The position numbers and the translations under genes are program-made. The notes beneath the pieces were generated by a model. The model worked only from the letters and a program-made list of their open reading frames with translations. It was not told the DNA's origin and did not search any database. This document shows positions 4,738 through 52,070 of a stretch of 64,000 bases of DNA, in pieces. Position 1 is the stretch's first letter. The number at the start of each line of letters is the position of its first letter. The stretch covers positions 13,877-77,876 of IMG/VR virus record IMGVR_UViG_3300009103_000015. The stretch is one strand, 5' to 3'. Source of the stretch: a virus.

Positions 4738-5217
4738 ATGGCAAACGCCAAGACACGCAAACACAAAAGACAGAAGAATAAGCAAGACTATATTAGACAG
4801 TTTGATGATTTAGATTTAGAATTAATCCACACTCTAATAAGATCCTATTCAAAAATACTCAAAATAAATAAACCTGTTTCCTTAGTAGATAAGGAACAAA
4901 TGGCATCATTATTTTATTTTCACATGAATAAAGTTGAAAGAGAAAAGAATGTTAAAGAATTAGACTATATTTTTGGTTCAACATATCCTGATGATAGAGT
5001 AGTTTATTTGAACCCAAGACTTTGTAAGAGAAATTATCAAAGTTTAGTTGATACATTAATACATGAATTATTACACATCAAATATCCTGAAAAAACTGAA
5101 GAACAGATACTTGAATTAGAAAGACAGTATTCTGGAAGGTATGATTATAACATAAAGAATAATGAAATTTTAAAGAAAGAAGGCTTAACTCAAAACTGCA
5201 AGGTGATTAAATTTTGA
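4738..5217 (+). CDS. HExxH zincin-like metalloprotease domain protein
   Basis: TLIHELLHIKYP; TTATATA about 25 nt upstream of the ATG. Confidence 0.6.
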   Translation: MANAKTRKHKRQKNKQDYIRQFDDLDLELIHTLIRSYSKILKINKPVSLVDKEQMASLFYFHMNKVEREKNVKELDYIFGSTYPDDRVVYLNPRLCKRNYQSLVDTLIHELLHIKYPEKTEEQILELERQYSGRYDYNIKNNEILKKEGLTQNCKVIKF

Positions 5218-6056
5218 AATCTGCTAAAGTAAAAAGAACAGTTTTCATAAACGATACTCACGTTGGAAGTAATGTAGGGTTAATGACAGATAGTGCAGAA
5301 CATGAAGGTGGTAGAAGTGTTGGTATGACATATCAACAAGGATTAATGTTAGATCATTGGAAAGAAGTAGCAAAGAAATGGAGAGATCCTGATTGTATAG
5401 TTTTGAATGGAGATTTGATTGATGGTCCAGCAAAAGCAGATAGAGGAAGTTCTGTATGGACAGTTGACATGGATAATCAAGCTCAAGAGTTCAAGAAACT
5501 TTTCAAGATGTGGGGAAAGCCTAAAAAAATCTATGCAGTAATTGGAACTCCATATCACGTAAACATTGATGCAATTAAAATTGAAGAACAAATAGCAAGG
5601 GATATTGGTGCTGAAAGAGAAAACAGTAGATATGCAACTGAAGCTAAACTAATCAATCTTGCTCCTGATTCAACTTTCAAAACTGATAAAGAAAGAATAG
5701 TTCACGTAGCACATCACATGGGTTCAACTAAAGTTTGGATGTATCGTGGAACTGCTCCTAGTAGAGCAATGGCTATGATGATGTTAAACGAATCACATTT
5801 CCTAGAACGTTCAAGAAAGATATTCGGAATTATAAGAGCTCATGTTCATCATTATTGGCAAGAGAAATCTTCTAGTAGATTAATGCAAGTATTACCATGC
5901 TATCAATTACAAACGCCTTTCATGTATAAGATAATGCCTGAATCACCTCCTGATTTGGGAAGTGTTCAATTCAACTTTCATGAAGATGGAACTTGGGAAG
6001 ATGAGTATGCTCCATTGAAAACTAAGATTACTAGAATGAAGGTGAACCAAGCTTGA
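5214..6056 (+). CDS. Calcineurin-like metallophosphoesterase
   Basis: DxH (NDTHVG), GDxxDG (NGDLIDG), GTPYH, HH, AHVH motifs. Confidence 0.78.
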   Translation: MKSAKVKRTVFINDTHVGSNVGLMTDSAEHEGGRSVGMTYQQGLMLDHWKEVAKKWRDPDCIVLNGDLIDGPAKADRGSSVWTVDMDNQAQEFKKLFKMWGKPKKIYAVIGTPYHVNIDAIKIEEQIARDIGAERENSRYATEAKLINLAPDSTFKTDKERIVHVAHHMGSTKVWMYRGTAPSRAMAMMMLNESHFLERSRKIFGIIRAHVHHYWQEKSSSRLMQVLPCYQLQTPFMYKIMPESPPDLGSVQFNFHEDGTWEDEYAPLKTKITRMKVNQA

Positions 6057-6791: not shown

Positions 6792-6801
6792 TTCTAATAT
6801 C

Positions 6802-7056
6802 ATGTGGAATAGATTCTGGTCATGGTATGATAAACATACAACAGAATCATTATTGATGACAGCAATAATTTTGTTTATGCAAATTCCTCACATGGTCTGG
6901 GCAGGAGATGCTATTTTACAGAGTGGAGTTGTATGGGGAGCAAATCCAATCTTAGATTTCTTTTTGTATGGAATTGATTTGGTTGAAATTATTCCAATGA
7001 TAAATGTTGGAATGTTAATTTATAACAAGTTGAGAAAGAATGGCAAAACTGTGTAA
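6802..7056 (+). CDS. Small integral membrane protein
   Basis: Hydrophobic segments LLMTAIILFMQI and ILDFFLYGIDLVEIIPMINVGMLIY, basic C-tail. Confidence 0.6.
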   Translation: MWNRFWSWYDKHTTESLLMTAIILFMQIPHMVWAGDAILQSGVVWGANPILDFFLYGIDLVEIIPMINVGMLIYNKLRKNGKTV

Positions 7057-7173
7057 GAAATGTAATGAGTGGAAACCATACTCGTATTATTTTGATGATA
7101 GATTTAGAATGTGTGTTGACTGCTATGATTCATTGAAAATTATACTTAAATAAATTACTTCTAAGAACATATT

Positions 7174-7458
7174 ATGCTAGACTTCTTAACAGAGAACGTT
7201 TTAATAGTTCTAATAGGTTTGATAATAACTGCTGGATTTACAGGAATTACAGGTTATTTCAAGAAAAGAACAAATTGTTTGCAGAAAGTAGCAGATGAAG
7301 TAGAAGACTTAAGAAAAAGAGCATATAGAATTGAAAAAGCTTTGGTTATTCTCACAAAAATGCAAGAAGATGTTATAGAAAAAACACACCCTGAATTGAA
7401 ACCTGAATGGGAAGATATAGTAAAAGAATTATTAGATAAAGGAAATGGTCACAGATGA
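7174..7458 (+). CDS. N-terminal TM anchor plus coiled-coil protein (holin/antiholin-like)
   Basis: VLIVLIGLIITAGFTGITGYF then KKR and a heptad region. Confidence 0.55.
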   Translation: MLDFLTENVLIVLIGLIITAGFTGITGYFKKRTNCLQKVADEVEDLRKRAYRIEKALVILTKMQEDVIEKTHPELKPEWEDIVKELLDKGNGHR

Positions 7459-7576
7459 GTAGAGGTTATTGTTGTTTTCAATGTGGTTGTTGCACAGATG
7501 AACCAGAAAAAACCTGTTCATGCAAGTGTCATGGTCATTGAAAACATAAATAGATGTATAATGGAGTAATTTTGAA

Positions 7577-7828
7577 ATGGATCCATTAATTATGGTAGCA
7601 GGAGCATCAGTAATTGGTGCTGGACTGAATACATTGAGAGGATATTTGCACAGCAAAGAACCTTACAGTGCTAAGAAATTAGCTGGTTCTATAATCATTG
7701 CAACATTTGCTTCTTTGGCTTTAAGTCAAAGCATCATTGTTGACGGATTATCTGAATCAGGAATTATTCTTGTAGGTCTAGTCACAGGTTTTACTGCTGA
7801 TTATGCTATAACTAAAGCAAAGAAATAA
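7577..7828 (+). CDS. Holin-like protein, about 3 TM helices
   Basis: 83 aa, three hydrophobic stretches, basic tail TKAKK, upstream of a protease gene. Confidence 0.55.
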   Translation: MDPLIMVAGASVIGAGLNTLRGYLHSKEPYSAKKLAGSIIIATFASLALSQSIIVDGLSESGIILVGLVTGFTADYAITKAKK

Positions 7829-7903
7829 TCGTAGTTTTCTCTGATTTTTTGAAATTCAGTTAGTGAAAACTATAATCTATATTTTTTTATACTCATCATT
7901 AAT

Positions 7904-8782
7904 TTGATATACATGGTAATTCTTTCAAAGAAAGATGGAATCACAGATATACCTTCTTGTGTTATAACAGATACCTATGCAAATGAAGGATTAGTTTACA
8001 ATGAAGGAGTTCAATTTTCAACAGACTTAGAAATAGATGAATGGAAACATAAATGGAATCCTGAAAAAAGAGAGGGAAAAGATTACGGATATGTCACATA
8101 CAAATTATTGAAAGGTAGAGAATCAAAATCATTTCCAAATTCTAGTTTTGAGCATAAAGCATTAACCGTAGCATTGAGAACATGGGGATTGAGAACAAAG
8201 AATATTAGATTCAAAAGAATTTACAATGAAAATGAAGTTGCAGATATTGAAGTAAAATTTGAAACTAGGGAAGAGAATGATTATTTCAGAGATAAACCAA
8301 CTGTTCTAGCATACGCATATTTTCCTAATGGAAAAAAGATTGGTGGAGATATGGTATTCAATGATTCTATTTGGTGGTCAGAAGATGGAGAATCAGTAAA
8401 TGCACATGAATTAGATCCTGATAATTATCCAGCAGATACTAAAACCCAAATAAAGACATACAATCTAGTTCACGTAATGATACACGAAGCTGGTCACGCA
8501 TTAGGCTTGAAACATCAAACCAAATGTAAAGAATGTGTAATGTATCCTTATTATTCTGGAAAGGTTGTTCTTCATGATGATGGAGATAGAATGTTTAGAG
8601 TTCATGGTTCAGAATACCCATTGACCAAAAAAGCCTACGATTATTATGTAAAGAATGGATATACTCCAGAACCAATAGAAATGCCACACGATGTTGATAG
8701 AATACAAAGTTTCTATGGAAAAAGAACCTTAAGTCAAAGAATTATTGATTATTTTAGACGTAGAAATGAAAGGAAGTATTAA
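7904..8782 (+). CDS. Matrixin (peptidase M10) zinc metalloprotease (ATG 7913 likely)
   Basis: HEAGHALGLKH (HExxHxxGxxH), Met-turn VMYP, VLAYAYFP, GGDMVFND, DVDRIQSFYG. Confidence 0.88.
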   Translation: MIYMVILSKKDGITDIPSCVITDTYANEGLVYNEGVQFSTDLEIDEWKHKWNPEKREGKDYGYVTYKLLKGRESKSFPNSSFEHKALTVALRTWGLRTKNIRFKRIYNENEVADIEVKFETREENDYFRDKPTVLAYAYFPNGKKIGGDMVFNDSIWWSEDGESVNAHELDPDNYPADTKTQIKTYNLVHVMIHEAGHALGLKHQTKCKECVMYPYYSGKVVLHDDGDRMFRVHGSEYPLTKKAYDYYVKNGYTPEPIEMPHDVDRIQSFYGKRTLSQRIIDYFRRRNERKY

Positions 8783-8828: not shown

Positions 8829-9134
8829 TTGCCAAATAGAAATAAGAAGACATTCGGAGAGCATAATGGTAAACATAAATACATCTCCAAGAATTACCAA
8901 CGGAATTGGAATGTAAAAGATGATTCTCTAGAAGTTAAAACTGATGTTGAAATTGAAACTGGAGAGAAGGTTGTAGTAGATACAGAAGTTAAAATAGAAA
9001 AGGCAGATTTACCAAAAGAAGTAAAGAAACAAAGAAGAAAGTTGATTAAGAAACATCATCCAGATAAGAATCCAGACGATCCATCTTCTGCTGAAAAATT
9101 AAAAAAAATATTAAAAGACTATGACGGAAACTGA
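8829..9134 (+). CDS. Protein with C-terminal truncated J-domain
   Basis: VKKQRRKLIKKHHPDKNPDD...AEKLKKI: HPD motif between two helices. Confidence 0.65.
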   Translation: MPNRNKKTFGEHNGKHKYISKNYQRNWNVKDDSLEVKTDVEIETGEKVVVDTEVKIEKADLPKEVKKQRRKLIKKHHPDKNPDDPSSAEKLKKILKDYDGN

Positions 9135-9198
9135 TTAATTAATTAATTTTATTTATATAGAAAAATATACTTATTAAGACAATAATTGTAGAACTACT

Positions 9199-9507
9199 AT
9201 GCCAAGTCGAGGAAGATACTGGAAACAAGGAGGACTAAAAGATAATGTAGTCACTTCAGCAGATATTAAAGATGCTTCAATCGTATCAGCAGACATCAAA
9301 ATTTTTGTATCATCAGAACAAACTGGAAATGGTTCAGCACAAAACATTGCTCATGGATTAGGTTCAACTCCTACCAAAGTAATTGTTGCTTTGACTGAAT
9401 TTGGTGGTTCAACAGCAGTAGATGTAGCAGAGGGAACTCATACATCAACTAATTGTGTTGTCACAGTTTCATCAGGTGTAAAATACAAAGTATGGGCACA
9501 GGTGTAA
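9199..9507 (+). CDS. Small beta-rich virion (decoration/fibre-associated) protein
   Basis: S/T/G/V-rich, IAHGLGSTPTKV motif common in fibre modules. Confidence 0.5.
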   Translation: MPSRGRYWKQGGLKDNVVTSADIKDASIVSADIKIFVSSEQTGNGSAQNIAHGLGSTPTKVIVALTEFGGSTAVDVAEGTHTSTNCVVTVSSGVKYKVWAQV

Positions 9508-9512
9508 GCGAT

Positions 9513-10289
9513 ATGAAAATCATTGACAACTTTGATTCAGTTGAAGAAAGAATTGAGAAATTCAATTCATGGAAAGATAGCTCTCCAAAATACCATTATG
9601 GTAAAAAGAAATTAAATCCAAACGATAACATTGTTATTGCTAAAACAACACAACCAACAGCAGATAATGGATTTATGACCAAAGCAGGAGAAAACAAACC
9701 ATACACACAATATATGTTAACACACAATCTCGTCACATCAGATGGAGATATTTATTATGCTAAGAAAATTACTTTAAAGAAATCAGATGGAACTGCATAC
9801 GGTGATACCGATTTTGCAACTGACGGAATATTCTTCCATCACATCAGTGGAAGTGTAAGTTCATCAACAACTTATGGTGCAATGATATTGGGAAGTGCCA
9901 ACGTCACAACACATCAATCAGATACTTATGGAGTTTCAGGAAACTCTGGAACAACTTTCCAATCTGGAGCTTATGATGCTTCACATGGTTCAATTAATAC
10001 AACTAAAGTCTTAACAGCAAACTATCCTCGTCATAATGACGGAGATGGAGATAACTCTGGTGGTGCAAACGATCAGGTCACATGGGCTTATTCATGGACT
10101 ACTGGCGACTTTGATACAACAGGTGCTACTGATTTGAACGGTGGTGTTATTGTTGACAGAGCAACCAACGCAACTCCAGCAAACTCTGCAAAACTGTTAT
10201 GCCACTTTGAATTTTCAAGTGCCTTCGAGAAGACTGGAAACGATACTTTGAAAGTGTTCGTTAATCATACCTTCGAGGGTGGAGCATAA
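9513..10289 (+). CDS. Putative virion structural protein
   Basis: HNLVT...LLCHFEF...KTGNDTLKVFV, G/S/T/D rich, within the fibre cluster. Confidence 0.5.
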   Translation: MKIIDNFDSVEERIEKFNSWKDSSPKYHYGKKKLNPNDNIVIAKTTQPTADNGFMTKAGENKPYTQYMLTHNLVTSDGDIYYAKKITLKKSDGTAYGDTDFATDGIFFHHISGSVSSSTTYGAMILGSANVTTHQSDTYGVSGNSGTTFQSGAYDASHGSINTTKVLTANYPRHNDGDGDNSGGANDQVTWAYSWTTGDFDTTGATDLNGGVIVDRATNATPANSAKLLCHFEFSSAFEKTGNDTLKVFVNHTFEGGA

Positions 10290-10419: not shown

Positions 10420-11271
10420 ATGGCACGAAAAGCTATCTATAAACACGCAACTCAAGTAGATGCAACTGCTTATCCTGATGATCCTTCAGCACCAATCGGA
10501 ACAAACGAATGGAATGAAGATCCAGATAGTGCAGGAATGTTAGGTTTCACAGCACAAACCGTAGCATCAGCAACAAGTGTAGCAGTATCAAATTCAGTAT
10601 TATCATTAACAGGTTCAACAGATGTAGCAACTTTCGCAACAGGTGACACAGCAGAGAATGATTTGCTTTGGGTCACAACAACTGGAACTGTCACATTAAA
10701 ACATGGAACAGGAAATATTTATACTAAATCAGGAGCAGATACAGATCTATCAACAACAGAACCATTAATCTTCATAAGAAAAGGTTCTAATTGGTATCAA
10801 TATGGTGGAGCACCTTCTGCAAGTCCATCATTCACTGGAACAATAAGTGGAGCAAACATGACACTATCAGGAAATCTAATTGTAAATGGAGCAACATCAA
10901 CTATCAATTCTACTACAATAACAGTAGATGATAAGAACATAGAATTAGCTTCAACTGCTAGTCCTTCAGATGCTTTGGCAGATGGTGGTGGAATAACAAT
11001 CAAAGGAACAACAGATAAGACTATCATATATACAAACGCAACAGGCGACTTTGATATTTCAGAGAATGTAGATATTGCAAGTGGTAAGAAATTTAAAATT
11101 AACGGAAATGACGTATTCAGTCCAATAGACTTAGACAGAGTAGGTTCAGCACCAGCAGATCCTTCTGCAAACAAATGTCTTGTATATGTAAAATCATTAG
11201 ATGCAAATAATGATGGAATATTTATTAAGATCAAGAAAGCAGGTCAATATAACGAGGTTCAGGTGGCTTAA
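10420..11271 (+). CDS. Fibre-like virion protein
   Basis: GNLIVNGATSTINSTTITVDDKNIEL...DGGGITIKG repeat type seen in marine phage fibres. Confidence 0.6.
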   Translation: MARKAIYKHATQVDATAYPDDPSAPIGTNEWNEDPDSAGMLGFTAQTVASATSVAVSNSVLSLTGSTDVATFATGDTAENDLLWVTTTGTVTLKHGTGNIYTKSGADTDLSTTEPLIFIRKGSNWYQYGGAPSASPSFTGTISGANMTLSGNLIVNGATSTINSTTITVDDKNIELASTASPSDALADGGGITIKGTTDKTIIYTNATGDFDISENVDIASGKKFKINGNDVFSPIDLDRVGSAPADPSANKCLVYVKSLDANNDGIFIKIKKAGQYNEVQVA

Positions 11272-11273
11272 AC

Positions 11274-14249
11274 ATGGCAATTAAATATCTAGCAGGCAAT
11301 AGAATAACAGGTTTATCAACAGATACAAAACCAACTAACGTTCCAACAGATTCAGAATTTACTGAAACAGATACTAAGAAACAATTTATCTGGAGTGGTT
11401 CAGCTTGGGTTGCTTCAGGAACAGGTGGAACAGTAGAAGGTTCAGAAATTACAGTAGCAACAATTCCATTAAACAGATTAGCAAACGGAACAGCAAACAA
11501 GACCATCGGTTATGATTCAAATGGAGCTATCGCAGAATTAGCTTCTAGTTCAGGTGTAGAAGCATCAAGTGCAGTAATGACTTATGATACAGTCGGTAAA
11601 TATGGAACTTACAAACCAATCTTGGGAGCAAATACAGATTATAGAACAAGACATGGTAAAGCAACATACTGGTCTGACTTTTCAGATTCAACAATGACTT
11701 CTGGTTGGCAACATAATGGAGATGGTGCTTATGTATCAGGTGGAAAACTTCATGCACAAGCAGATGATTCAACATCAACTTATGATTTATACACATTATT
11801 AGGAGATGCAAAAGTAGATGTAAGAAATTGGTGTCTTAGATTTACATTCCAGCCAAAACTTTCATCAAGAACACAAGGTTATTGTGGATTTGGTTTATCA
11901 TCAAAAGATAATTCAAAAGAATTAGATCAGTCACAAAACTGGGTAGGATTTATTTATCAAGCTGACACTGGTGCAGGTGGTTGGTCTTGGGGAAGTTGTT
12001 ATGGTTCACAGAATCCAGTTTCACACGCAAGAGATGATAGTATGGGTGGTTCAATTAACTATTCACAAACAAATAATGCATGGGCACACAAAACAAGAGT
12101 TTACATTGAAATTATCAGAGAAGGAAACAGATTCATTTTCAGAAGATATTCAGATAATGACTTTAGAGAATGTGTAGATGAATATGAACAAAACTCCGAT
12201 GCAAAGAACTATTTCACAGATCCAGATGAATCTGAAGATGGAAATGCAACAACTCAAAACGACCAAAGATTAAGATATTTGAAAGCATCAGGTCAAGGTG
12301 GAACAACATCAGGACAAGGAATGATGGATGCAGTTATTGACTATGTTCAATTCTGGAATGGTTCATGTGGATTATCATCAGCACCTTATTACTTAACAAG
12401 AAGAGCATGGGAAAGAGATGTCACTGGAACAAAACCAGCAGGTGAAAACATTGGTGGTAGAGAACATACTCATGGAACAATCTTTAGAAACTTCCCTGTC
12501 ACAGGAACTGAAAACGTAGCTTCTGACCACAAATGTATTGGTAATGAAGCATCAACATATTGGGATGCAGTAGGAGTAAAGATAGATTCTCAAGAACATC
12601 CTATTGTAATCAATAGATGGAATGGAGAAAGAGATAATGAACAGGTTTGGGTTAGACATAATGGTTATCCACTTAGAAGTGTAAAATTCTGGTTATGGAA
12701 AGAAGGAAGTCCAACTGGAAGACTTAGATTAGTTGTCTATGGACAATCATCAAACTCACACTTTAGATGTCGTTCAAAGAACTGGATAGATGCATCAACA
12801 TTATCATCAACAGCAGGTAAAGCAAATGCTACTGCATGTGAATTTTTCATTGACGGTTATTTACCAAGACATGACGACCACTTTGTTGTAGAATTGGAAG
12901 CACCAACTAAGACAGATGATGCAGATGGTTATACTATTCCAGCACCACACTATCGTGGACAATCACACGCATCAACAGCTAGAGTTCATATCTGTTGTAG
13001 AAATGATGCTAACAATGATACAGAAGATAATTGGTCAGGACAATATATGAGATTAGGTTATTGTTATAATAGACAAAGCACTGGTTCTAGTGGAACAGGT
13101 GTTCCAAATATGTCAAGAACAGGAACTACTAACACAAGCCACTATTGGTATGATGTTGGTGGAATTACAAGTGATGATTCTTGGACACCATACGTTGAAT
13201 GGAAATGGGGAGCAGATGCTTACATATCTCCACCAGAAGCAAACACACACATTGACTGTTTCGTAGGAGAAGATCAATGGAAGTATGAACAATATAATCA
13301 AGGTAGAAGTAATTATGATGATTGGCAAAGTGAATTATCAAGTAGTGACCCATTGACAATGTCATGGTCAACAACTCAACACAGTAATGGTTGGGAAACT
13401 GGAAACAGCACAAACCACGCATATTTCTGGGATAACGATTCAGATTCATTGACATCAAACACAGAAACTTACAATTCTAGAAGAATGAACATGGAAAATA
13501 TGGAATTTGACCAATATCGTGAATGTGACTTTAGTAGTGCAAAACACAGAACTATCATCATGAGAGTTTATTACAGATATGGTTCAATTATGTTCTTTGG
13601 AAGAGGAAACAATTCTAACTCATGGGAACCAAATGATAAAGGTGAGAAAGAAGCATTAGGAACAGGTAATCCATACATCAGAGATAGATACAATGAATGG
13701 AAAGAACTATGTTATGATGAGAACTATTATGGTTCATGGGATCACAGAGTAATTGTAATAAGTGGTTATTGGAGATACCTAAGAATGTATTTCCGTTCAA
13801 GATCAAACGACCAACAGATGAATACACAATTCTACTGGTATGCAAACTATCCAAGAAAGATTGTATCACATATTGATATCACTCCATTAAAGAAAGACTA
13901 TACACATAACGCATCATCAGCAAATGCATCAACTGATATCATGACTGCAACACAGTTAGAGATACAGAAACAAGATATTGATGAAACAACTACTAACGAA
14001 TATCCATTATACACAACTGTAAGAACAATTAACGTATCAGCATTAACAGATGGACAATCTAACTATATCAGAGTTCCAGTAGCAGATACAACTTGTTATC
14101 GTATCAGAGTAAAAGATTCAGGAAACAAAGTATTAGCATTATCACAAGTTAGGGTAAAGTATCATGACAGTAATGATATCTCATTCAATCATGGACATCA
14201 ACCTATGACAGCAACAGATGCAAGTTTGCAGTTGTCTGGAGAAGCATAG
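11274..14249 (+). CDS. Large putative receptor-binding/fibre protein
   Basis: N-terminal GLSTDTKPT...ETDT...WSGSAW anchor module, then W/Y/S/G-rich beta domains. Confidence 0.55.
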   Translation: MAIKYLAGNRITGLSTDTKPTNVPTDSEFTETDTKKQFIWSGSAWVASGTGGTVEGSEITVATIPLNRLANGTANKTIGYDSNGAIAELASSSGVEASSAVMTYDTVGKYGTYKPILGANTDYRTRHGKATYWSDFSDSTMTSGWQHNGDGAYVSGGKLHAQADDSTSTYDLYTLLGDAKVDVRNWCLRFTFQPKLSSRTQGYCGFGLSSKDNSKELDQSQNWVGFIYQADTGAGGWSWGSCYGSQNPVSHARDDSMGGSINYSQTNNAWAHKTRVYIEIIREGNRFIFRRYSDNDFRECVDEYEQNSDAKNYFTDPDESEDGNATTQNDQRLRYLKASGQGGTTSGQGMMDAVIDYVQFWNGSCGLSSAPYYLTRRAWERDVTGTKPAGENIGGREHTHGTIFRNFPVTGTENVASDHKCIGNEASTYWDAVGVKIDSQEHPIVINRWNGERDNEQVWVRHNGYPLRSVKFWLWKEGSPTGRLRLVVYGQSSNSHFRCRSKNWIDASTLSSTAGKANATACEFFIDGYLPRHDDHFVVELEAPTKTDDADGYTIPAPHYRGQSHASTARVHICCRNDANNDTEDNWSGQYMRLGYCYNRQSTGSSGTGVPNMSRTGTTNTSHYWYDVGGITSDDSWTPYVEWKWGADAYISPPEANTHIDCFVGEDQWKYEQYNQGRSNYDDWQSELSSSDPLTMSWSTTQHSNGWETGNSTNHAYFWDNDSDSLTSNTETYNSRRMNMENMEFDQYRECDFSSAKHRTIIMRVYYRYGSIMFFGRGNNSNSWEPNDKGEKEALGTGNPYIRDRYNEWKELCYDENYYGSWDHRVIVISGYWRYLRMYFRSRSNDQQMNTQFYWYANYPRKIVSHIDITPLKKDYTHNASSANASTDIMTATQLEIQKQDIDETTTNEYPLYTTVRTINVSALTDGQSNYIRVPVADTTCYRIRVKDSGNKVLALSQVRVKYHDSNDISFNHGHQPMTATDASLQLSGEA

Positions 14250-48783: not shown

Positions 48784-50091
48784 ATGAAAGCAAAAACAAA
48801 AACAAAACAATCCACTCAATCAGGTGGAAGTAGTGGAGAAGTAATGCCTGAAAAGAAAGTGACAATAGTAAAAGAAGCCGAAAATAAAAAAGAAGTGATG
48901 GGCGATTATTTGAAAACCATCGCTGATACTATCTTCGGTGGTAAAGAACTTGATGGAAATGTAAAACGTTCTTGTCAAGCAATTTACCAACAAGAGTTGA
49001 AGAACGGTAGAAGAAAGAATCCTGTCGTTAGTAAAGATGGAAAGATATTAGATCCTTCCAAATTCAAAAGACTAGTGACACGATATACTAAGTTATTGAA
49101 TACTGTTGACAAGACAGATCACCCAGCAGAAGTTTCAGTAGGTTCTTCTAATGGAAGTTCTTCTAATGGAAGTTTAATGTCAGTTCAAGTTCCAGTTGAT
49201 CATACTAAGTATATTGAATTAAACATTCCACACTACGTTGAAGTTCATAGTGAGTTTAAAGTATTTGATGCTCACATGAAAAGTGGTATTCCACTTTTAA
49301 TTCAAGGACCGAAAGGTATTGGTAAGACACTTGGCTTAGCAAAATACGCTGAAAAGAAAAGATGTCCTATCATAGAATATGATTGCTCTGAAGGAACTAA
49401 GAAGTATGATCTTCAAGGAACTAAGACTGGAGTTGCTGGTGGAGTGACTCCATTCGAGTTAGGATTCATTCCAAGAATCATAGAATGTGCTAATCAATTT
49501 GGTATGGCTATTCTTGTTCTCGAAGAACTTAACGCATTAACTCCAGCGATGCAAAAACTTCTAAACCCATTACTCGATTGGAGAAAAGGAATGTATATTC
49601 CAGAGATTGGAAAACGTTTCAAACTTAATGATGGAGTTAAACTTGGTATATTTGCAACAACCAATCCAGCATCTTATCAGGCTTCCAATGATCTTAACGA
49701 AGATCTTCAATCAAGATTCAGTATTTGGAAATGGAATTATCCTAACGTAAGACAAGAAAGAAAAGCAATTCAATGGCGTGGAGTTGATACTAGTATTCAG
49801 AAAGGTATCATGCTACTTGCAAAGAACACCAGAGACTTCGTAGAACAACAGAAGTTATCATACGCATTATCAACTAGAGATATTCAGAAGTTCATTGATG
49901 CCTATGTTTCTTACGAAGAAGATTCCGTAGAAATACTTAGGTTATGTTTAGACATGAATGTTATTTCCTTCTACGACGAAGTCGGTGAGATATCAACAGT
50001 GAAAAGTAGAATTGAATCTGCATTTGGTTCTAACATCTTTACTGCTAAAGGCGACGAAGCATTGGAAAATGCTTCAGATGAGGAATTATAG
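48784..50091 (+). CDS. MoxR-clade AAA+ ATPase (CbbQ/NorQ/CobS-like)
   Basis: Walker A GPKGIGKT, Walker B ILVLEELN, ATTNP sensor 1, LQSRF Arg finger, LSTR sensor 2. Confidence 0.88.
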   Translation: MKAKTKTKQSTQSGGSSGEVMPEKKVTIVKEAENKKEVMGDYLKTIADTIFGGKELDGNVKRSCQAIYQQELKNGRRKNPVVSKDGKILDPSKFKRLVTRYTKLLNTVDKTDHPAEVSVGSSNGSSSNGSLMSVQVPVDHTKYIELNIPHYVEVHSEFKVFDAHMKSGIPLLIQGPKGIGKTLGLAKYAEKKRCPIIEYDCSEGTKKYDLQGTKTGVAGGVTPFELGFIPRIIECANQFGMAILVLEELNALTPAMQKLLNPLLDWRKGMYIPEIGKRFKLNDGVKLGIFATTNPASYQASNDLNEDLQSRFSIWKWNYPNVRQERKAIQWRGVDTSIQKGIMLLAKNTRDFVEQQKLSYALSTRDIQKFIDAYVSYEEDSVEILRLCLDMNVISFYDEVGEISTVKSRIESAFGSNIFTAKGDEALENASDEEL

Positions 50092-50093
50092 AA

Positions 50094-52070
50094 ATGTCAT
50101 ACTTCACTGATTCAAACAACAACTTCAATTCAGGACTATCCTTTGAAAGTTCTGAAAAGGACAAGATAATTTCTAACACAGTTAAACTGATAGAGAAGTT
50201 CACTGGAAAGACTACGACACATTTCATAGATGATCAAATACCAATGGGAGAATTTAGAATCTTTAACAGAACTGAATGGATTGGTAATAGAGAAGAAGAT
50301 ATAATACAGATAGGAGTTAGTTCTTACAATACTAAAACTTCTATTGAAAGAGCTATGGCAGAAGTATTCTATGGAAGTGATTACCAATATGCAAAGCAAT
50401 GGGCACATGAAGAATCACATAAAATATCCAATCCTGATTGGAGAAAACAATCTTACGAAATAAATTTAGAAGGCTACGAAACTCTAAACCAAATAAGATG
50501 TCAAGATGCAATAGGTAAACAGTATGTTGGAACAGGAGAAAGAATAACTAAGGAAGATATTGAAAGACAATCACAATTTCCAGTAGATGAAATTCTTAAT
50601 CCAGTTCAAGCTTTGAAAGCAAGACAGATGGGAGTTGACCTAAGTTCAAGTGAGAGGTTTGACAATGAAACAATGGATTACTATATCAATAAAGCAAAAG
50701 GACTTAGCAAGTTAGGACTTTCAAAACTTAGTAAATCATTCTACAATAAAGTTATAGCACCTTGGCTACTTGGTAATCTTCAAAAGATTGAACCAGAACA
50801 ACCAGAACCTGAAACACAAGATGGCGACGGTGATAATGATTCAGATGATACTGATCAAGATAGTCAAAGTGAAAGTAGTGCAGATAGTGATGATGGAGAA
50901 GAAAGTGATTCAGATGATTACGATAATTCAACTTCAGGTAGTGGAGATCAAGATTCTGATGAAGAATCAGAAATGGAATCAGAAGCTGGTCTTGGAGATG
51001 ACGGTAATGATATAGATGAAGGCGATAGTATGTCACAAGAAGGTTGGGATGCTAAAGAAGAACTTGATTCTATTGATCAAACTATAAGTGATCAAACAAA
51101 GAACTCTACTCTATCAGATGATTGGGATAAAGGTGACAACAGTATTTCTTCATCTCAAACTAATGGAACAGAGGATTGGAATAACTTAGAAGATGAAGTC
51201 AGCGATGAAGATCAAGAAGATGGACAAGAAGAATTTAATAAAGTTGAAGAAGCATTATACGACACTAGTTATTCAGATGATACAAATGCAATAAACGTTC
51301 AAGAAGAATTAAAACACTGTCATGTCAACAAAGGCTATAATCCAAATGGTAATGAAGTTCCAGTAAATCGTATGCTTGTTAAACAACTAAGTAAAACATT
51401 TGAAAAGATACTTCAATCATCAGGAGAAGATAACGCACCAGAAGGAAGCGAGTTAGATATCAACGCCTTCATTGATTCTAGAATAGATGGAAGACCTGAA
51501 GTATTTATTCAAGAAGAAAACACAAATGAATTTCAAGCTATAATAGGTGTTGATCTTTCAAGTTCAATGGATGGAAACAAAATTCAAACTTGTTTAGATA
51601 TCTGTGCTAACTTATTGGAATCAATCAAATCAATTCCAAAAGTAAAAGTAAAGATAATTGGTTGGACAGGTAATGATTCCAGTTGTAGAATAATAGAAGC
51701 CACAAACAGAAAAGAGTTGTATGGATTTCAAGCATCATCATTAACTCCAATGGCTAAAGGAATGATATACTGTAAAAATCAATTAGATAGAATGCAAGGA
51801 ACTCGTAAAGTGATGTTCTTCTTAACAGACGGTTATCCAAACGACAATACAGATATTCCTAAAGTGAAACAATGTGTAAATGAAATGAGAATGAATAGAT
51901 ACAGTGTGTTAGGTATTGGTATCGGAATGAATAAAGCAGATTGTGATTCAGATGGAATGTTCCCTGATATGTTTGGTAAAGGATTCATTGCTTGTCCAAC
52001 GGTTGCAGACGTTGAGAGAGTATTAAGACAGGACTTCGTAAAAGAAGTATCAAAGTTTTTGAGGTGTTAA
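50094..52070 (+). CDS. vWA-domain partner protein (CobT/NorD-like) with acidic linker
   Basis: MIDAS DLSSSM...TPM...LTDGYP; long D/E/S tract. Confidence 0.85.
   Translation: MSYFTDSNNNFNSGLSFESSEKDKIISNTVKLIEKFTGKTTTHFIDDQIPMGEFRIFNRTEWIGNREEDIIQIGVSSYNTKTSIERAMAEVFYGSDYQYAKQWAHEESHKISNPDWRKQSYEINLEGYETLNQIRCQDAIGKQYVGTGERITKEDIERQSQFPVDEILNPVQALKARQMGVDLSSSERFDNETMDYYINKAKGLSKLGLSKLSKSFYNKVIAPWLLGNLQKIEPEQPEPETQDGDGDNDSDDTDQDSQSESSADSDDGEESDSDDYDNSTSGSGDQDSDEESEMESEAGLGDDGNDIDEGDSMSQEGWDAKEELDSIDQTISDQTKNSTLSDDWDKGDNSISSSQTNGTEDWNNLEDEVSDEDQEDGQEEFNKVEEALYDTSYSDDTNAINVQEELKHCHVNKGYNPNGNEVPVNRMLVKQLSKTFEKILQSSGEDNAPEGSELDINAFIDSRIDGRPEVFIQEENTNEFQAIIGVDLSSSMDGNKIQTCLDICANLLESIKSIPKVKVKIIGWTGNDSSCRIIEATNRKELYGFQASSLTPMAKGMIYCKNQLDRMQGTRKVMFFLTDGYPNDNTDIPKVKQCVNEMRMNRYSVLGIGIGMNKADCDSDGMFPDMFGKGFIACPTVADVERVLRQDFVKEVSKFLRC

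What the first reader, a model, noticed from the sequence alone, without database searches (positions are those of the whole stretch)
6802..8782. Candidate archaeal lysis cassette: holin-like proteins plus a matrixin as S-layer 'endolysin'
Seen: three small membrane proteins (6802, 7174, 7577; the last has ~3 TMs and a basic tail) directly precede an intact M10 metalloprotease with no signal peptide, just before the virion genes. No glycan hydrolase is evident in the window. Established: ammonia-oxidising archaea have a protein S-layer and no peptidoglycan; holin-endolysin adjacency is the bacterial phage norm; egress of tailed viruses from S-layer-only archaea is poorly understood. Inference: a holin releases a protease that cuts the S-layer.
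Basis: inference. Interest (0 to 1): 0.78.

Follow-up and report, generated by a model that had tools for sequence, protein, structure and literature searches.

The report
Membrane-coupled matrixin of archaeal tailed viruses
A marine archaeal tailed virus encodes an intact, signal-less matrix-metalloprotease-type enzyme directly behind small membrane-protein genes, a pairing kept across many related viruses, which makes it a testable candidate for how such viruses cut through a protein-only cell envelope.

Summary
Window 6802-8782 holds three real small membrane-protein genes: A (2 TM), B (1 TM plus a charged coil) and C (3 TM, basic tail). An intact matrixin follows (true start 7913, 289 aa, no signal peptide). 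The genome is a complete 77.9-kb archaeal-type tailed virus with no peptidoglycan hydrolase found by Pfam.

For it:
- In 49 of 63 related viral loci a small TM gene sits directly upstream of the matrixin, against 17% background.
- These TM genes belong to at least three unrelated families.
- Five homologues are fusions of unrelated multi-TM domains to the matrixin.
- An N-terminal Cys (cysteine-switch-like) and a basic C-terminal helix are nearly invariant.

Against it:
- 78 of the 80 best C-family loci place C, and often B, between the portal and prohead-protease genes, not beside the matrixin.
- No TM protein belongs to a known holin family.
- The fused forms are predicted to hold the enzyme on the cytoplasmic side.
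- Timing, export and substrate are untested.

My reading is a latent, membrane-coupled protease module, most likely used for envelope (S-layer) breakdown at egress (about 0.4).

The scan noted this same stretch once more in an overlapping window of the same genome, not on other DNA.

The parts
6802..7056 (+). ORF A, 84 aa, two TM-like segments
   Evidence: Homologues lie 3.4-4.5 kb upstream of the matrixin in L034-L061 and directly in L001.
7041..7154 (+). Tiny Cys-rich ORF (37 aa, CxxC..CxxC). Coding status unverified.
   Evidence: Read from the sequence.
7174..7458 (+). ORF B, 94 aa: N-terminal TM then a charged coiled region. The positive-inside rule gives N-out, C-in.
   Evidence: Homologues lie in the head module of the sister lineage and next to 3-TM genes in L028 and L069.
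7455..7541 (+). Tiny Cys-rich ORF (28 aa). It sits where a 64-72 aa Zn-ribbon gene lies between B and C in relatives.
7577..7828 (+). ORF C, 83 aa, three TM segments, basic loop 1 and basic C-terminal tail (holin-like shape)
   Evidence: 182 relatives in IMG/VR. The Atlas gives holin_3 families as a lead only, 0.80-0.82.
7829..7912 (+). Intergenic stretch with T-runs after C and an A/T-rich TATA-like box about 20-28 nt before ATG 7913. A possible own promoter and leaderless mRNA; inference only.
   Evidence: Sequence read.
7913..8782 (+). Matrixin, 289 aa, no signal peptide. About 43 aa low-confidence pro-like N-terminus, catalytic domain with a lineage-specific insert, basic C-terminal helix.
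7958..7960 (+). Codon of the nearly invariant Cys16 (P-S-C-V-I-T-D), candidate cysteine switch
   Evidence: Present in 91 of 98 homologues with the N-terminal motif. Invariant also in TM-fused forms. Its position in the fold could not be modelled.
8483..8515 (+). Zinc-binding motif HEAGHALGLKH
   Evidence: Motif present in 107 of 109 homologues.
8735..8779 (+). Conserved basic amphipathic C-terminal helix (RIIDYFRRR..)
   Evidence: AF2 helix 278-291. Net charge +4 or more in the last 22 residues in 100 of 109 homologues.
8829..9134 (+). Neighbouring J-domain (DnaJ) protein
   Evidence: PF00226, E 1.2e-7. Kept in L001 only.
10420..11271 (+). First gene with virion or tail-fibre-like hits. Relatives of it lie about 1 kb downstream of the matrixin in most lineages.
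   Evidence: phrog_6002, E 1.3e-19. Synteny.

Best explanation
The stretch is a membrane-coupled latent protease module of a tailed virus of marine archaea, probably ammonia-oxidising Nitrososphaeria.

**Shown.**
- The matrixin is made in the cytoplasm without any export signal.
- It keeps all catalytic residues.
- It carries a nearly invariant N-terminal cysteine in a short pro-like segment and a conserved basic amphipathic C-terminal helix.
- Across related viruses its gene follows a small membrane-protein gene of changing family.
- In some relatives it is fused to a multi-TM domain.

**Inferred mechanism.**
- The enzyme is kept inactive (cysteine-switch-like) and held at or near the inner face of the membrane. 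Either the partner protein or the enzyme's own basic helix does this.
- Late in infection the small membrane protein permeabilises or reorganises the membrane, in a holin-like way.
- The enzyme is activated, in the fused forms by cleavage after the pro-segment, and cuts the proteinaceous envelope (the S-layer or its anchor). The cell then opens.

In this window C is the most holin-like partner: 3 TM, N-out/C-in, basic tail, directly upstream. B and A are accessory or unrelated membrane proteins.
For: - The matrixin is intact and signal-less.
- The whole genome and two complete relatives are archaeal-type and show no murein hydrolase in Pfam.
- A small TM ORF lies directly upstream on the same strand in 49 of 63 loci, against 17% for other small plus-strand ORFs.
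- These partners fall into three families with no detectable relation, plus singletons. They swap along the matrixin tree while the adjacency persists.
- Family I occurs almost only in this position: 22 of 27 loci, two of the other five being cut short.
- Five homologues fuse three unrelated TM domains to the matrixin and keep the Cys and the basic tail.
- The Cys is present in 91 of 98 homologues and the basic tail in 100 of 109.
- In most lineages the module lies next to tail-fibre-like late genes.
- C has the shape of a class I holin, and the nearest named Atlas clusters are Phage_holin_3 families, a lead only.
- Only 8 of 100 ORFs in the genome are TM-like, and three of them are here.
- A review states that no S-layer-degrading enzyme of an archaeal virus is known and that egress of tailed archaeal viruses is uncharacterised (PMC10791045).
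Against: - Of the 80 best C-family loci, 78 place C between the portal and prohead-protease genes and only 2 place it before the matrixin. B travels with C in many of these loci. C and B are therefore a separate mobile block.
- No TM partner matches a holin family in Pfam, PHROGs or NCBIfam.
- In 4 of 5 fused forms the positive-inside rule puts the matrixin on the cytoplasmic side. That fits a target at the inner membrane face as well as it fits pre-positioning.
- In the sister lineage the matrixin heads a divergent block that continues with Zn-ribbon and nuclease-like genes, which may be early genes.
- In L030, L044 and L046 a tail-fibre-like gene, not a TM gene, directly precedes it.
- The genome also encodes a second metzincin with a true signal peptide, which could be the envelope-active enzyme instead.
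- The N-terminal 43 residues are modelled at pLDDT under 50, so the cysteine switch is untested.
Confidence: 0.4

Rival explanations
1. Membrane-face protease with an intracellular or membrane target. The matrixin works tethered at the cytoplasmic side of the membrane. It cleaves host or viral membrane-associated proteins, for host takeover, superinfection exclusion, receptor removal or processing of a viral membrane protein. It does not act outside the cell on the S-layer.
For: - Fused forms are predicted to be N-in/C-in, with the matrixin in the cytoplasm, in 4 of 5 cases.
- No export signal in 109 homologues.
- In the sister lineage the gene heads a block with early-looking genes.
- The conserved basic amphipathic helix could bind the inner leaflet.
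Against: - A conserved Cys in a pro-like segment suggests latency inside the reducing cytoplasm, which is odd for an enzyme meant to act there.
- Matrixins are typically extracellular enzymes (established knowledge).
- In most lineages the gene is next to tail-fibre genes.
Confidence: 0.25
2. Virion-associated entry enzyme. The matrixin is packaged on the tail and locally digests the S-layer during infection. The neighbouring TM genes are unrelated.
For: - The gene lies just upstream of tail-fibre-like genes in most lineages, and directly after one, with overlapping stop and start, in L030, L044 and L046.
- The review notes that no S-layer-degrading virion enzyme is known yet, so the niche is open.
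Against: - No fusion to tail or fibre domains was found. The word-index search for longer forms found none. The longer forms from the exhaustive search that I examined were TM-domain fusions or carried N-terminal extensions with no match to tail or fibre genes.
- The recurrent TM partner and the TM fusions are not expected for a tail enzyme.
- The protein is small, apparently monomeric, and has no recognisable virion-attachment domain.
Confidence: 0.15
3. Loose association only. The matrixin is an auxiliary enzyme, for example one that scavenges peptides or degrades debris and receptors after lysis. The neighbouring membrane genes act independently, and the real lysis system is something else, possibly the secreted metzincin or unknown genes.
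For: - C and B are unlinked from the matrixin in the sister lineage.
- Each gene in the window seems to have its own A/T-rich upstream box, and a T-run follows C, so no operon is shown.
- A second, signal-peptide metzincin exists.
Against: - The adjacency holds in 49 of 63 loci with three unrelated TM families, together with three independent TM fusions. This is hard to get without functional coupling.
- Family I is found almost only in front of the matrixin.
Confidence: 0.15

Closest known systems
Lambda-type holin-endolysin cassette (S105/R; Pfam Phage_holin_3 families)
   Same: - A small 3-TM protein with the predicted N-out/C-in topology and a basic tail lies directly upstream of a signal-less envelope-degrading-type enzyme.
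- The TM partner family varies between relatives while the adjacency is kept, as with holins.
   Different: - The enzyme is a zinc protease, and the hosts have no murein.
- There is no sequence membership in any holin family.
- In the sister lineage C sits in the head module.
- Fused relatives tether the enzyme, probably on the cytoplasmic side, which the lambda scheme does not include.
Pseudomurein endoisopeptidases PeiP/PeiW of methanogen viruses (the only established archaeal-virus lysis enzymes; PMC10791045, PMC12596118)
   Same: A peptidase encoded by an archaeal tailed virus, made without an export signal, proposed to need an unidentified membrane-hole former.
   Different: Pei enzymes are cysteine peptidases that cut pseudomurein cross-links. 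This one is a metzincin, in viruses whose likely hosts have only a protein S-layer.
Matrix metalloproteinase zymogens (MMP-1, -3, -13) and bacterial karilysin
   Same: Catalytic fold, HExxHxxGxxH, Met-turn, domain boundaries, and a Cys in a pro-segment ahead of the catalytic domain.
   Different: - No signal peptide.
- The pro-segment is only about 40 aa and the Cys context is P-x-C-[VI], not PRCGxPD.
- The His ligands of the structural zinc are replaced (LAYAY and GDMVF in place of LAHAF and GDAHF).
- There is an extra basic C-terminal helix.
- The genomic context is viral.
Membrane-type MMPs (MT-MMPs)
   Same: A matrixin tethered to a membrane, as in the fused relatives P0130, P0132, P0134, P0136 and P0139.
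   Different: MT-MMPs use a C-terminal TM helix or GPI anchor and face outwards. Here the anchor is an N-terminal 2-4-TM domain, and the predicted orientation is cytoplasmic in 4 of 5 cases.
Virus-associated pyramids (PVAP) of Sulfolobus viruses
   Same: A virus-encoded way through an S-layer-only archaeal envelope.
   Different: PVAP is a single self-assembling membrane protein that pushes the S-layer apart mechanically. No protease is involved, and there is no homology.

Membership tests
Matrixin (MEROPS M10A, Pfam PF00413) | Profile match above the curated threshold | tested here: met
   83.6 bits against a cut-off of 24, E 1.8e-23. PDB profile E 2.6e-22 to the MMP-1 catalytic domain, in two stretches from its start to its end.
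Matrixin (MEROPS M10A, Pfam PF00413) | HExxHxxGxxH zinc site with catalytic Glu, and a Met-turn | tested here: met
   HEAGHALGLKH and VMYPYY in the window protein. The motif is present in 107 of 109 homologues and the Met-turn pattern in 101 of 109.
Matrixin (MEROPS M10A, Pfam PF00413) | MMP catalytic-domain fold | tested here: met
   AF2 pLDDT 81. Foldseek E 1e-11, TM 0.75-0.85 normalised to the target, for MMP-13, MMP-1 and MMP-3.
Matrixin (MEROPS M10A, Pfam PF00413) | Structural (second) zinc bound by three His and one Asp, typical of MMPs | tested here: not met
   In the alignment to MMP-1 the ligand positions read LAYAY and GD[MI]VF instead of LAHAF and GDAHF. This is a typical rather than a defining feature, so membership stands, as a variant.
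Matrixin (MEROPS M10A, Pfam PF00413) | Cysteine-switch propeptide (PRCGxPD) that keeps the zymogen latent | tested here: inconclusive
   A Cys is conserved in 91 of 98 homologues, about 22-27 residues before the conserved EW..KW motif at the start of the catalytic domain, and is invariant in the fused forms. The motif differs, and the N-terminus is modelled at pLDDT under 50.
Matrixin (MEROPS M10A, Pfam PF00413) | Secretory signal peptide (usual for MMPs) | tested here: not met
   No 19-residue window reaches hydropathy 1.6 in any of 109 homologues.
Holin (functional class; e.g. Phage_holin_3 families) | Small size, at least one TM segment, charged hydrophilic C-terminus | tested here: met
   - C: 83 aa, 3 TM, tail TKAKK.
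- Family II: 56-61 aa, two hydrophobic segments, tail KHKN.
- Family I: 52-83 aa, 1 TM.

Holin (functional class; e.g. Phage_holin_3 families) | Gene adjacent to the lytic enzyme gene | tested here: inconclusive
   Met for some small TM gene in 49 of 63 loci, and for C in four lineages. Not met for C in 78 of the 80 best C-family loci.
Holin (functional class; e.g. Phage_holin_3 families) | Sequence membership in a described holin family | tested here: not met
   No hit in Pfam, PHROGs or NCBIfam. PF16083 at E 0.093 in 1 of 13 C homologues only. Atlas similarity 0.80-0.82 is a lead only.
Holin (functional class; e.g. Phage_holin_3 families) | Timed, lethal hole formation in the membrane | not testable with these tools
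   Needs expression or complementation assays.
Endolysin-equivalent (functional class) | Degrades the host wall polymer, here the S-layer protein | not testable with these tools
   Needs a biochemical assay on Nitrosopumilus S-layer.
Endolysin-equivalent (functional class) | Late expression and no role in the virion | tested here: inconclusive
   The position next to tail-fibre genes suggests late expression in most lineages. The layout of the sister lineage suggests otherwise. The RNA contigs gave no information on this stretch.

The most novel reading that the evidence does not exclude
This matrixin clade is the first S-layer 'endolysin' of tailed archaeal viruses. It would be a cytoplasmic, cysteine-switch-latent zinc protease, held at the membrane by a small partner protein or by a fused TM domain. 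It would be released through a holin-like lesion to dissolve the protein envelope of ammonia-oxidising archaea. That would give a general protease-based lysis system for S-layer-only archaea.
Probability: 0.33. Interest if true: 0.85.

Novelty: new variant of a known kind. Interest (0 to 1): 0.7.

Why it matters
How tailed viruses leave archaea that have only a protein S-layer is an open question. The 2024 review of archaeal virus entry and egress states that no S-layer-degrading enzyme has been identified in any archaeal virus. It also states that the players in tailed-virus egress are uncharacterised (PMC10791045). I found no description of this matrixin clade in the papers I could search.

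The module gives a concrete and widespread candidate:
- over 100 homologue clusters at 90% identity;
- 82 clusters at 50% identity with E of 1e-30 or better;
- presence in several complete archaeal-type virus genomes.

Clear, cheap experiments follow from it. The likely hosts, marine ammonia oxidisers, are major players in the nitrogen cycle, so their lysis mechanism affects models of nutrient release. Even if the egress reading fails, a viral matrixin that is recurrently paired or fused with membrane domains is a new arrangement for this protease family.

Tried and rejected
The genomic context of metagenome homologues, including the fused forms, could not be fetched.
- **tblastn of the matrixin against 50,697 phage records:** no match.
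- **Single-sequence scan of IMG/VR:** nothing. The alignment-based scan worked.
- **Genome-contig scan:** only weak cyanobacterial metzincins, so no provirus-based host link.
- **PHROGs:** no family for A, B, C or the matrixin.
- **hhalign between the three TM families:** no relation. HMMs of A, B, C and families I and II against the TM domains of the fused forms: nothing significant.
- **Word-index search for longer forms:** none. The exhaustive profile search then found the TM fusions.
- **Complex prediction, matrixin with C:** no verdict, score 0.00. This is not evidence either way.
- **Metatranscriptome contigs (X16, X20):** they cover 8887-10230 and 11152-11293 but nothing in 6800-8782. 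A hole proves nothing, and DNA carry-over is possible.
- **AF2 on the cysteine switch:** it could not place the N-terminal 43 residues, so the switch geometry is untested.
- **AF2 of the 150-aa HExxH family behind family II:** pLDDT 53, too poor for a fold search. Pfam, PDB and hhalign gave no family.
- **One tree script** returned no answer and was redone with FastTree.
- **Matrixin as capsid-maturation protease: considered and rejected.** The capsid precursor matches a protease/MCP fusion, and relatives have an XkdF/S78-type prohead protease.
- **SAR or signal-anchor type export: considered and rejected.** No hydrophobic N-terminus in any homologue.
Full report
**What is in the sequence**

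The ORF list shows four consecutive plus-strand genes at the stated places. Hydropathy gives these results:
- A (84 aa from ATG 6802) has two TM-like segments.
- B (7174-7458) has one N-terminal TM segment, followed by a charged region.
- C (7577-7828) has three TM segments: two above threshold plus a Gly/Ala-rich first one that scores as TM in homologues. It ends in TKAKK.

All three have protein-level homologues in other viral contigs, so they are genes. In the whole genome only 8 of 100 ORFs of 60 aa or more have a TM-like segment, and A, B and C are three of them.

Two tiny Cys-rich ORFs (7041-7154, 7455-7541) lie in the gaps.

The fourth gene is a matrixin. The evidence:
- PF00413 at 83.6 bits, E 1.8e-23.
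- A profile of the family aligns with the MMP-1 catalytic domain in two stretches, from its first strand to its closing Q..YG motif, E 2.6e-22.
- The AF2 model has pLDDT 81, and its best Foldseek matches are MMP-13, MMP-1 and MMP-3 catalytic domains.

The invariant Met of the family aligns with ATG 7913, so the protein has 289 residues.

The stretch between C and the matrixin has T-runs and an A/T-rich box about 20-28 nt before ATG 7913. This would fit an own archaeal promoter with a leaderless mRNA, but that is inference.

**What kind of virus**

The window is bases 13877-77876 of a complete 77,876-bp IMG/VR record with direct terminal repeats. Its markers are:
- a portal;
- a terminase-like protein;
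- RadA (PF08423, E 1e-72);
- a 916-aa capsid precursor whose only match among 50,697 phage records is the protease/major-capsid fusion of the Nitrososphaera provirus Pro-Nvie1 (34% identity, E 2e-41).

Such a fusion has been described for thaumarchaeal proviruses (PMC6563490).

No peptidoglycan or glycan hydrolase family appears in a Pfam scan of the ORFs of 60 aa or more (first 25 of 35 families listed). The 3326-aa ORF was scanned separately and matched no family.

Two other complete genomes that carry the matrixin (45.8 kb and 34 kb, both with terminal repeats) encode MCM helicases. One also encodes RadA. Neither shows a murein hydrolase among the families listed: all 15 for the 34-kb genome, the first 25 of 36 for the 45.8-kb genome.

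An archaeal host is therefore well supported. Nitrososphaeria is likely but not shown.

**The matrixin clade**

The family size, from two searches:
- 112 homologue clusters at 90% identity;
- 82 clusters at 50% identity with E of 1e-30 or better in the exhaustive search.

Among 109 full-length homologues:
- 107 keep HExxHxxGxxH;
- 101 keep the Met-turn pattern;
- none has a hydrophobic segment;
- 100 end in a basic tail, which AF2 models as a helix.

Of the 98 homologues with the N-terminal W motif, 91 have a Cys about 22-27 residues before it. The usual context is P-x-C-[VI].

The His ligands of the structural zinc of MMPs are replaced.

In a natural variant genome, 22 of 29 listed differences inside the gene fall on third codon positions, as expected for a gene under selection.

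The earlier scan note on a minimal cysteine switch (e1-6023043) agrees with this. I could test conservation of the Cys but not its geometry, because residues 1-43 are modelled at pLDDT under 50.

**Linkage, seen from the matrixin**

I called ORFs in 80 IMG/VR loci around matrixin homologues. In the 63 loci of the clade with an upstream ORF, the gene directly upstream on the same strand was a small TM protein in 49. The background for other small plus-strand ORFs is 17%.

These partners form three families with no detectable relation, plus singletons:
- C-like, 3 TM, 13 sequences;
- family I, 1 TM and a C-terminal Cys pair, 18 loci;
- family II, two hydrophobic segments and a basic end, 18 loci.

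On a tree of the matrixins the partner family changes several times while the adjacency stays.

Exceptions are few:
- L030, L044 and L046, where a tail-fibre-like gene directly precedes the matrixin;
- L042;
- a few members of the family I clade.

**Linkage, seen from the partners**

- **Family I** is found almost only in front of the matrixin: 22 of 27 loci, with two of the other five cut short.
- **Family II** precedes the matrixin in 24 of 58 loci. In at least 28 of the other 34 it precedes, at the same roughly 30-nt spacing, a 150-aa protein family with an invariant HExxH. I could not classify that family.
- **C behaves differently.** Of the 80 best C-family loci, 78 have C between the portal and the prohead protease, 50-100 nt before the protease. 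A Zn-ribbon gene and often B lie upstream of it. Only two loci have C before the matrixin.

In that abundant sister lineage the matrixin lies 4-5 kb away on the other strand, behind a family I gene. It heads a block that continues with Zn-ribbon and nuclease-like genes.

C directly precedes the matrixin in four lineages: window/L001, L062, L032-L061 and L038. On the matrixin tree these fall in two separate places.

So the block B, Cys-rich ORF, C is a unit of its own that is sometimes parked next to the matrixin.

**Fusions**

The exhaustive search found longer proteins in which the whole matrixin profile matches the C-terminal part. Five of them (P0130, P0132, P0134, P0136, P0139) carry N-terminal domains with two to five TM segments, depending on the hydropathy threshold. 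These domains belong to three unrelated groups, none related to A, B, C or families I and II.

The fusions keep the invariant Cys, the zinc motif and the basic tail. The Cys-bearing segment lies between the lysine-rich linker and the catalytic domain.

By the positive-inside rule, four of the five place the matrixin on the cytoplasmic side. P0134 is encoded on a 1.89-Mb contig, so it belongs to a cellular genome or a provirus in one.

These Rosetta-stone fusions are the strongest sign that the enzyme works with a membrane domain.

**A second metzincin**

Lineages with C before the matrixin also encode a 272-310-aa metzincin with a typical signal peptide or signal anchor, divergently and directly upstream of C.

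The genome of the window has a homologue at G000:11915-12802 on the minus strand, about 1.1 kb before the window. It has a clear signal peptide and HEYAHALGVGH.

These viruses therefore invest in extracytoplasmic proteolysis. This supports an envelope target in general, but it also offers a competing candidate for the envelope-active enzyme.

**Reading**

*Shown:*
- an intact, signal-less matrixin;
- its recurrent pairing or fusion with membrane domains;
- conserved Cys and basic helix;
- archaeal-type viruses without murein hydrolases detectable by Pfam.

*Inferred:*
- latency through the Cys;
- membrane pre-positioning;
- release through, or with, the small membrane protein;
- the S-layer as substrate;
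- late timing.

I put the egress model at about 0.4. The rivals are:
- a membrane-face intracellular role, about 0.25;
- a virion entry enzyme, about 0.15;
- loose association, about 0.15.

The claim that the three ORFs A, B and C are the holins of this protease holds only weakly, and best for C.

**Novelty**

Searches of the paper library found no description of a matrixin in archaeal viruses.
- A survey of prokaryotic viral lytic proteins lists only Pei and PVAP for archaea, plus structure-based holin candidates (PMC12596118).
- A study of Poseidoniales viruses proposes holins next to an amidase, not a protease (PMC11706807).
- The 2024 review says that no S-layer-degrading enzyme of an archaeal virus is known (PMC10791045).
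- A comparative study reports genes annotated as matrixin and adamalysin in two sponge-associated Nitrosopumilus genomes (PMC6697440). I could not check whether those are proviral.

**Limits**

- The TM predictions are from a hydropathy window of my own, not a trained predictor.
- ORF calling in the loci was mechanical.
- Loci are phylogenetically related, so 49 of 63 is not 49 independent events. The independent units are the three partner families, a few singletons and three fusion types.

Noticed in passing
L084:11915-12802 (minus strand; G000 coordinates, about 1.1 kb before the window start): A second metzincin (295 aa, HEYAHALGVGH) with a classical signal peptide. Homologues lie divergently next to C and the matrixin in L032-L040 and L058-L062, and downstream of the matrixin in L042 and L068.
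   Followed up: partly
window 7041-7154 and 7455-7541: Two tiny Cys-rich ORFs (37 and 28 aa) between A and B and between B and C. A 64-72 aa Zn-ribbon gene occupies the B-C gap in the sister lineage.
   Followed up: partly
L094-L172 (e.g. L116:3001-3252): The 3-TM protein C sits 50-100 nt upstream of the prohead protease, between the portal and protease genes, in 78 of 80 loci. A membrane protein conserved inside a head-morphogenesis module is unexplained.
   Followed up: partly
L183:1700-2152 and 27 further loci (alignment A9): A 150-aa protein family with an invariant HExxH and a further invariant His, encoded about 30 nt behind family II small TM genes in the place where the matrixin sits in other viruses. 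No Pfam or PDB match, and the AF2 model is poor.
   Followed up: partly
proteins P0130, P0132, P0134, P0136, P0139: Natural fusions of three unrelated multi-TM domains to the viral-type matrixin. P0134 lies on a 1.89-Mb contig, so a cellular genome or a provirus carries one.
   Followed up: partly
window 8829-9134: A 101-aa protein with a J-domain (DnaJ, HPD motif) directly after the matrixin. It is kept only in the closest relative, L001.
   Followed up: no
window 4738-6056: A SprT-like HExxH protein (weak, below the Pfam threshold) followed by a calcineurin-like metallophosphatase. Both are conserved in L001 and L028.
   Followed up: no
window 48784-52070: An AAA_5 ATPase followed by a VWA-domain protein, a CobS/CobT-like or MoxR-like pair.
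   Followed up: no
window 8887-10230 and 11152-11293: Short contigs from two metatranscriptomic runs of the source study match the J-domain gene and the genes before the tail-fibre-like gene at 99-100% identity. DNA carry-over cannot be excluded.
   Followed up: partly
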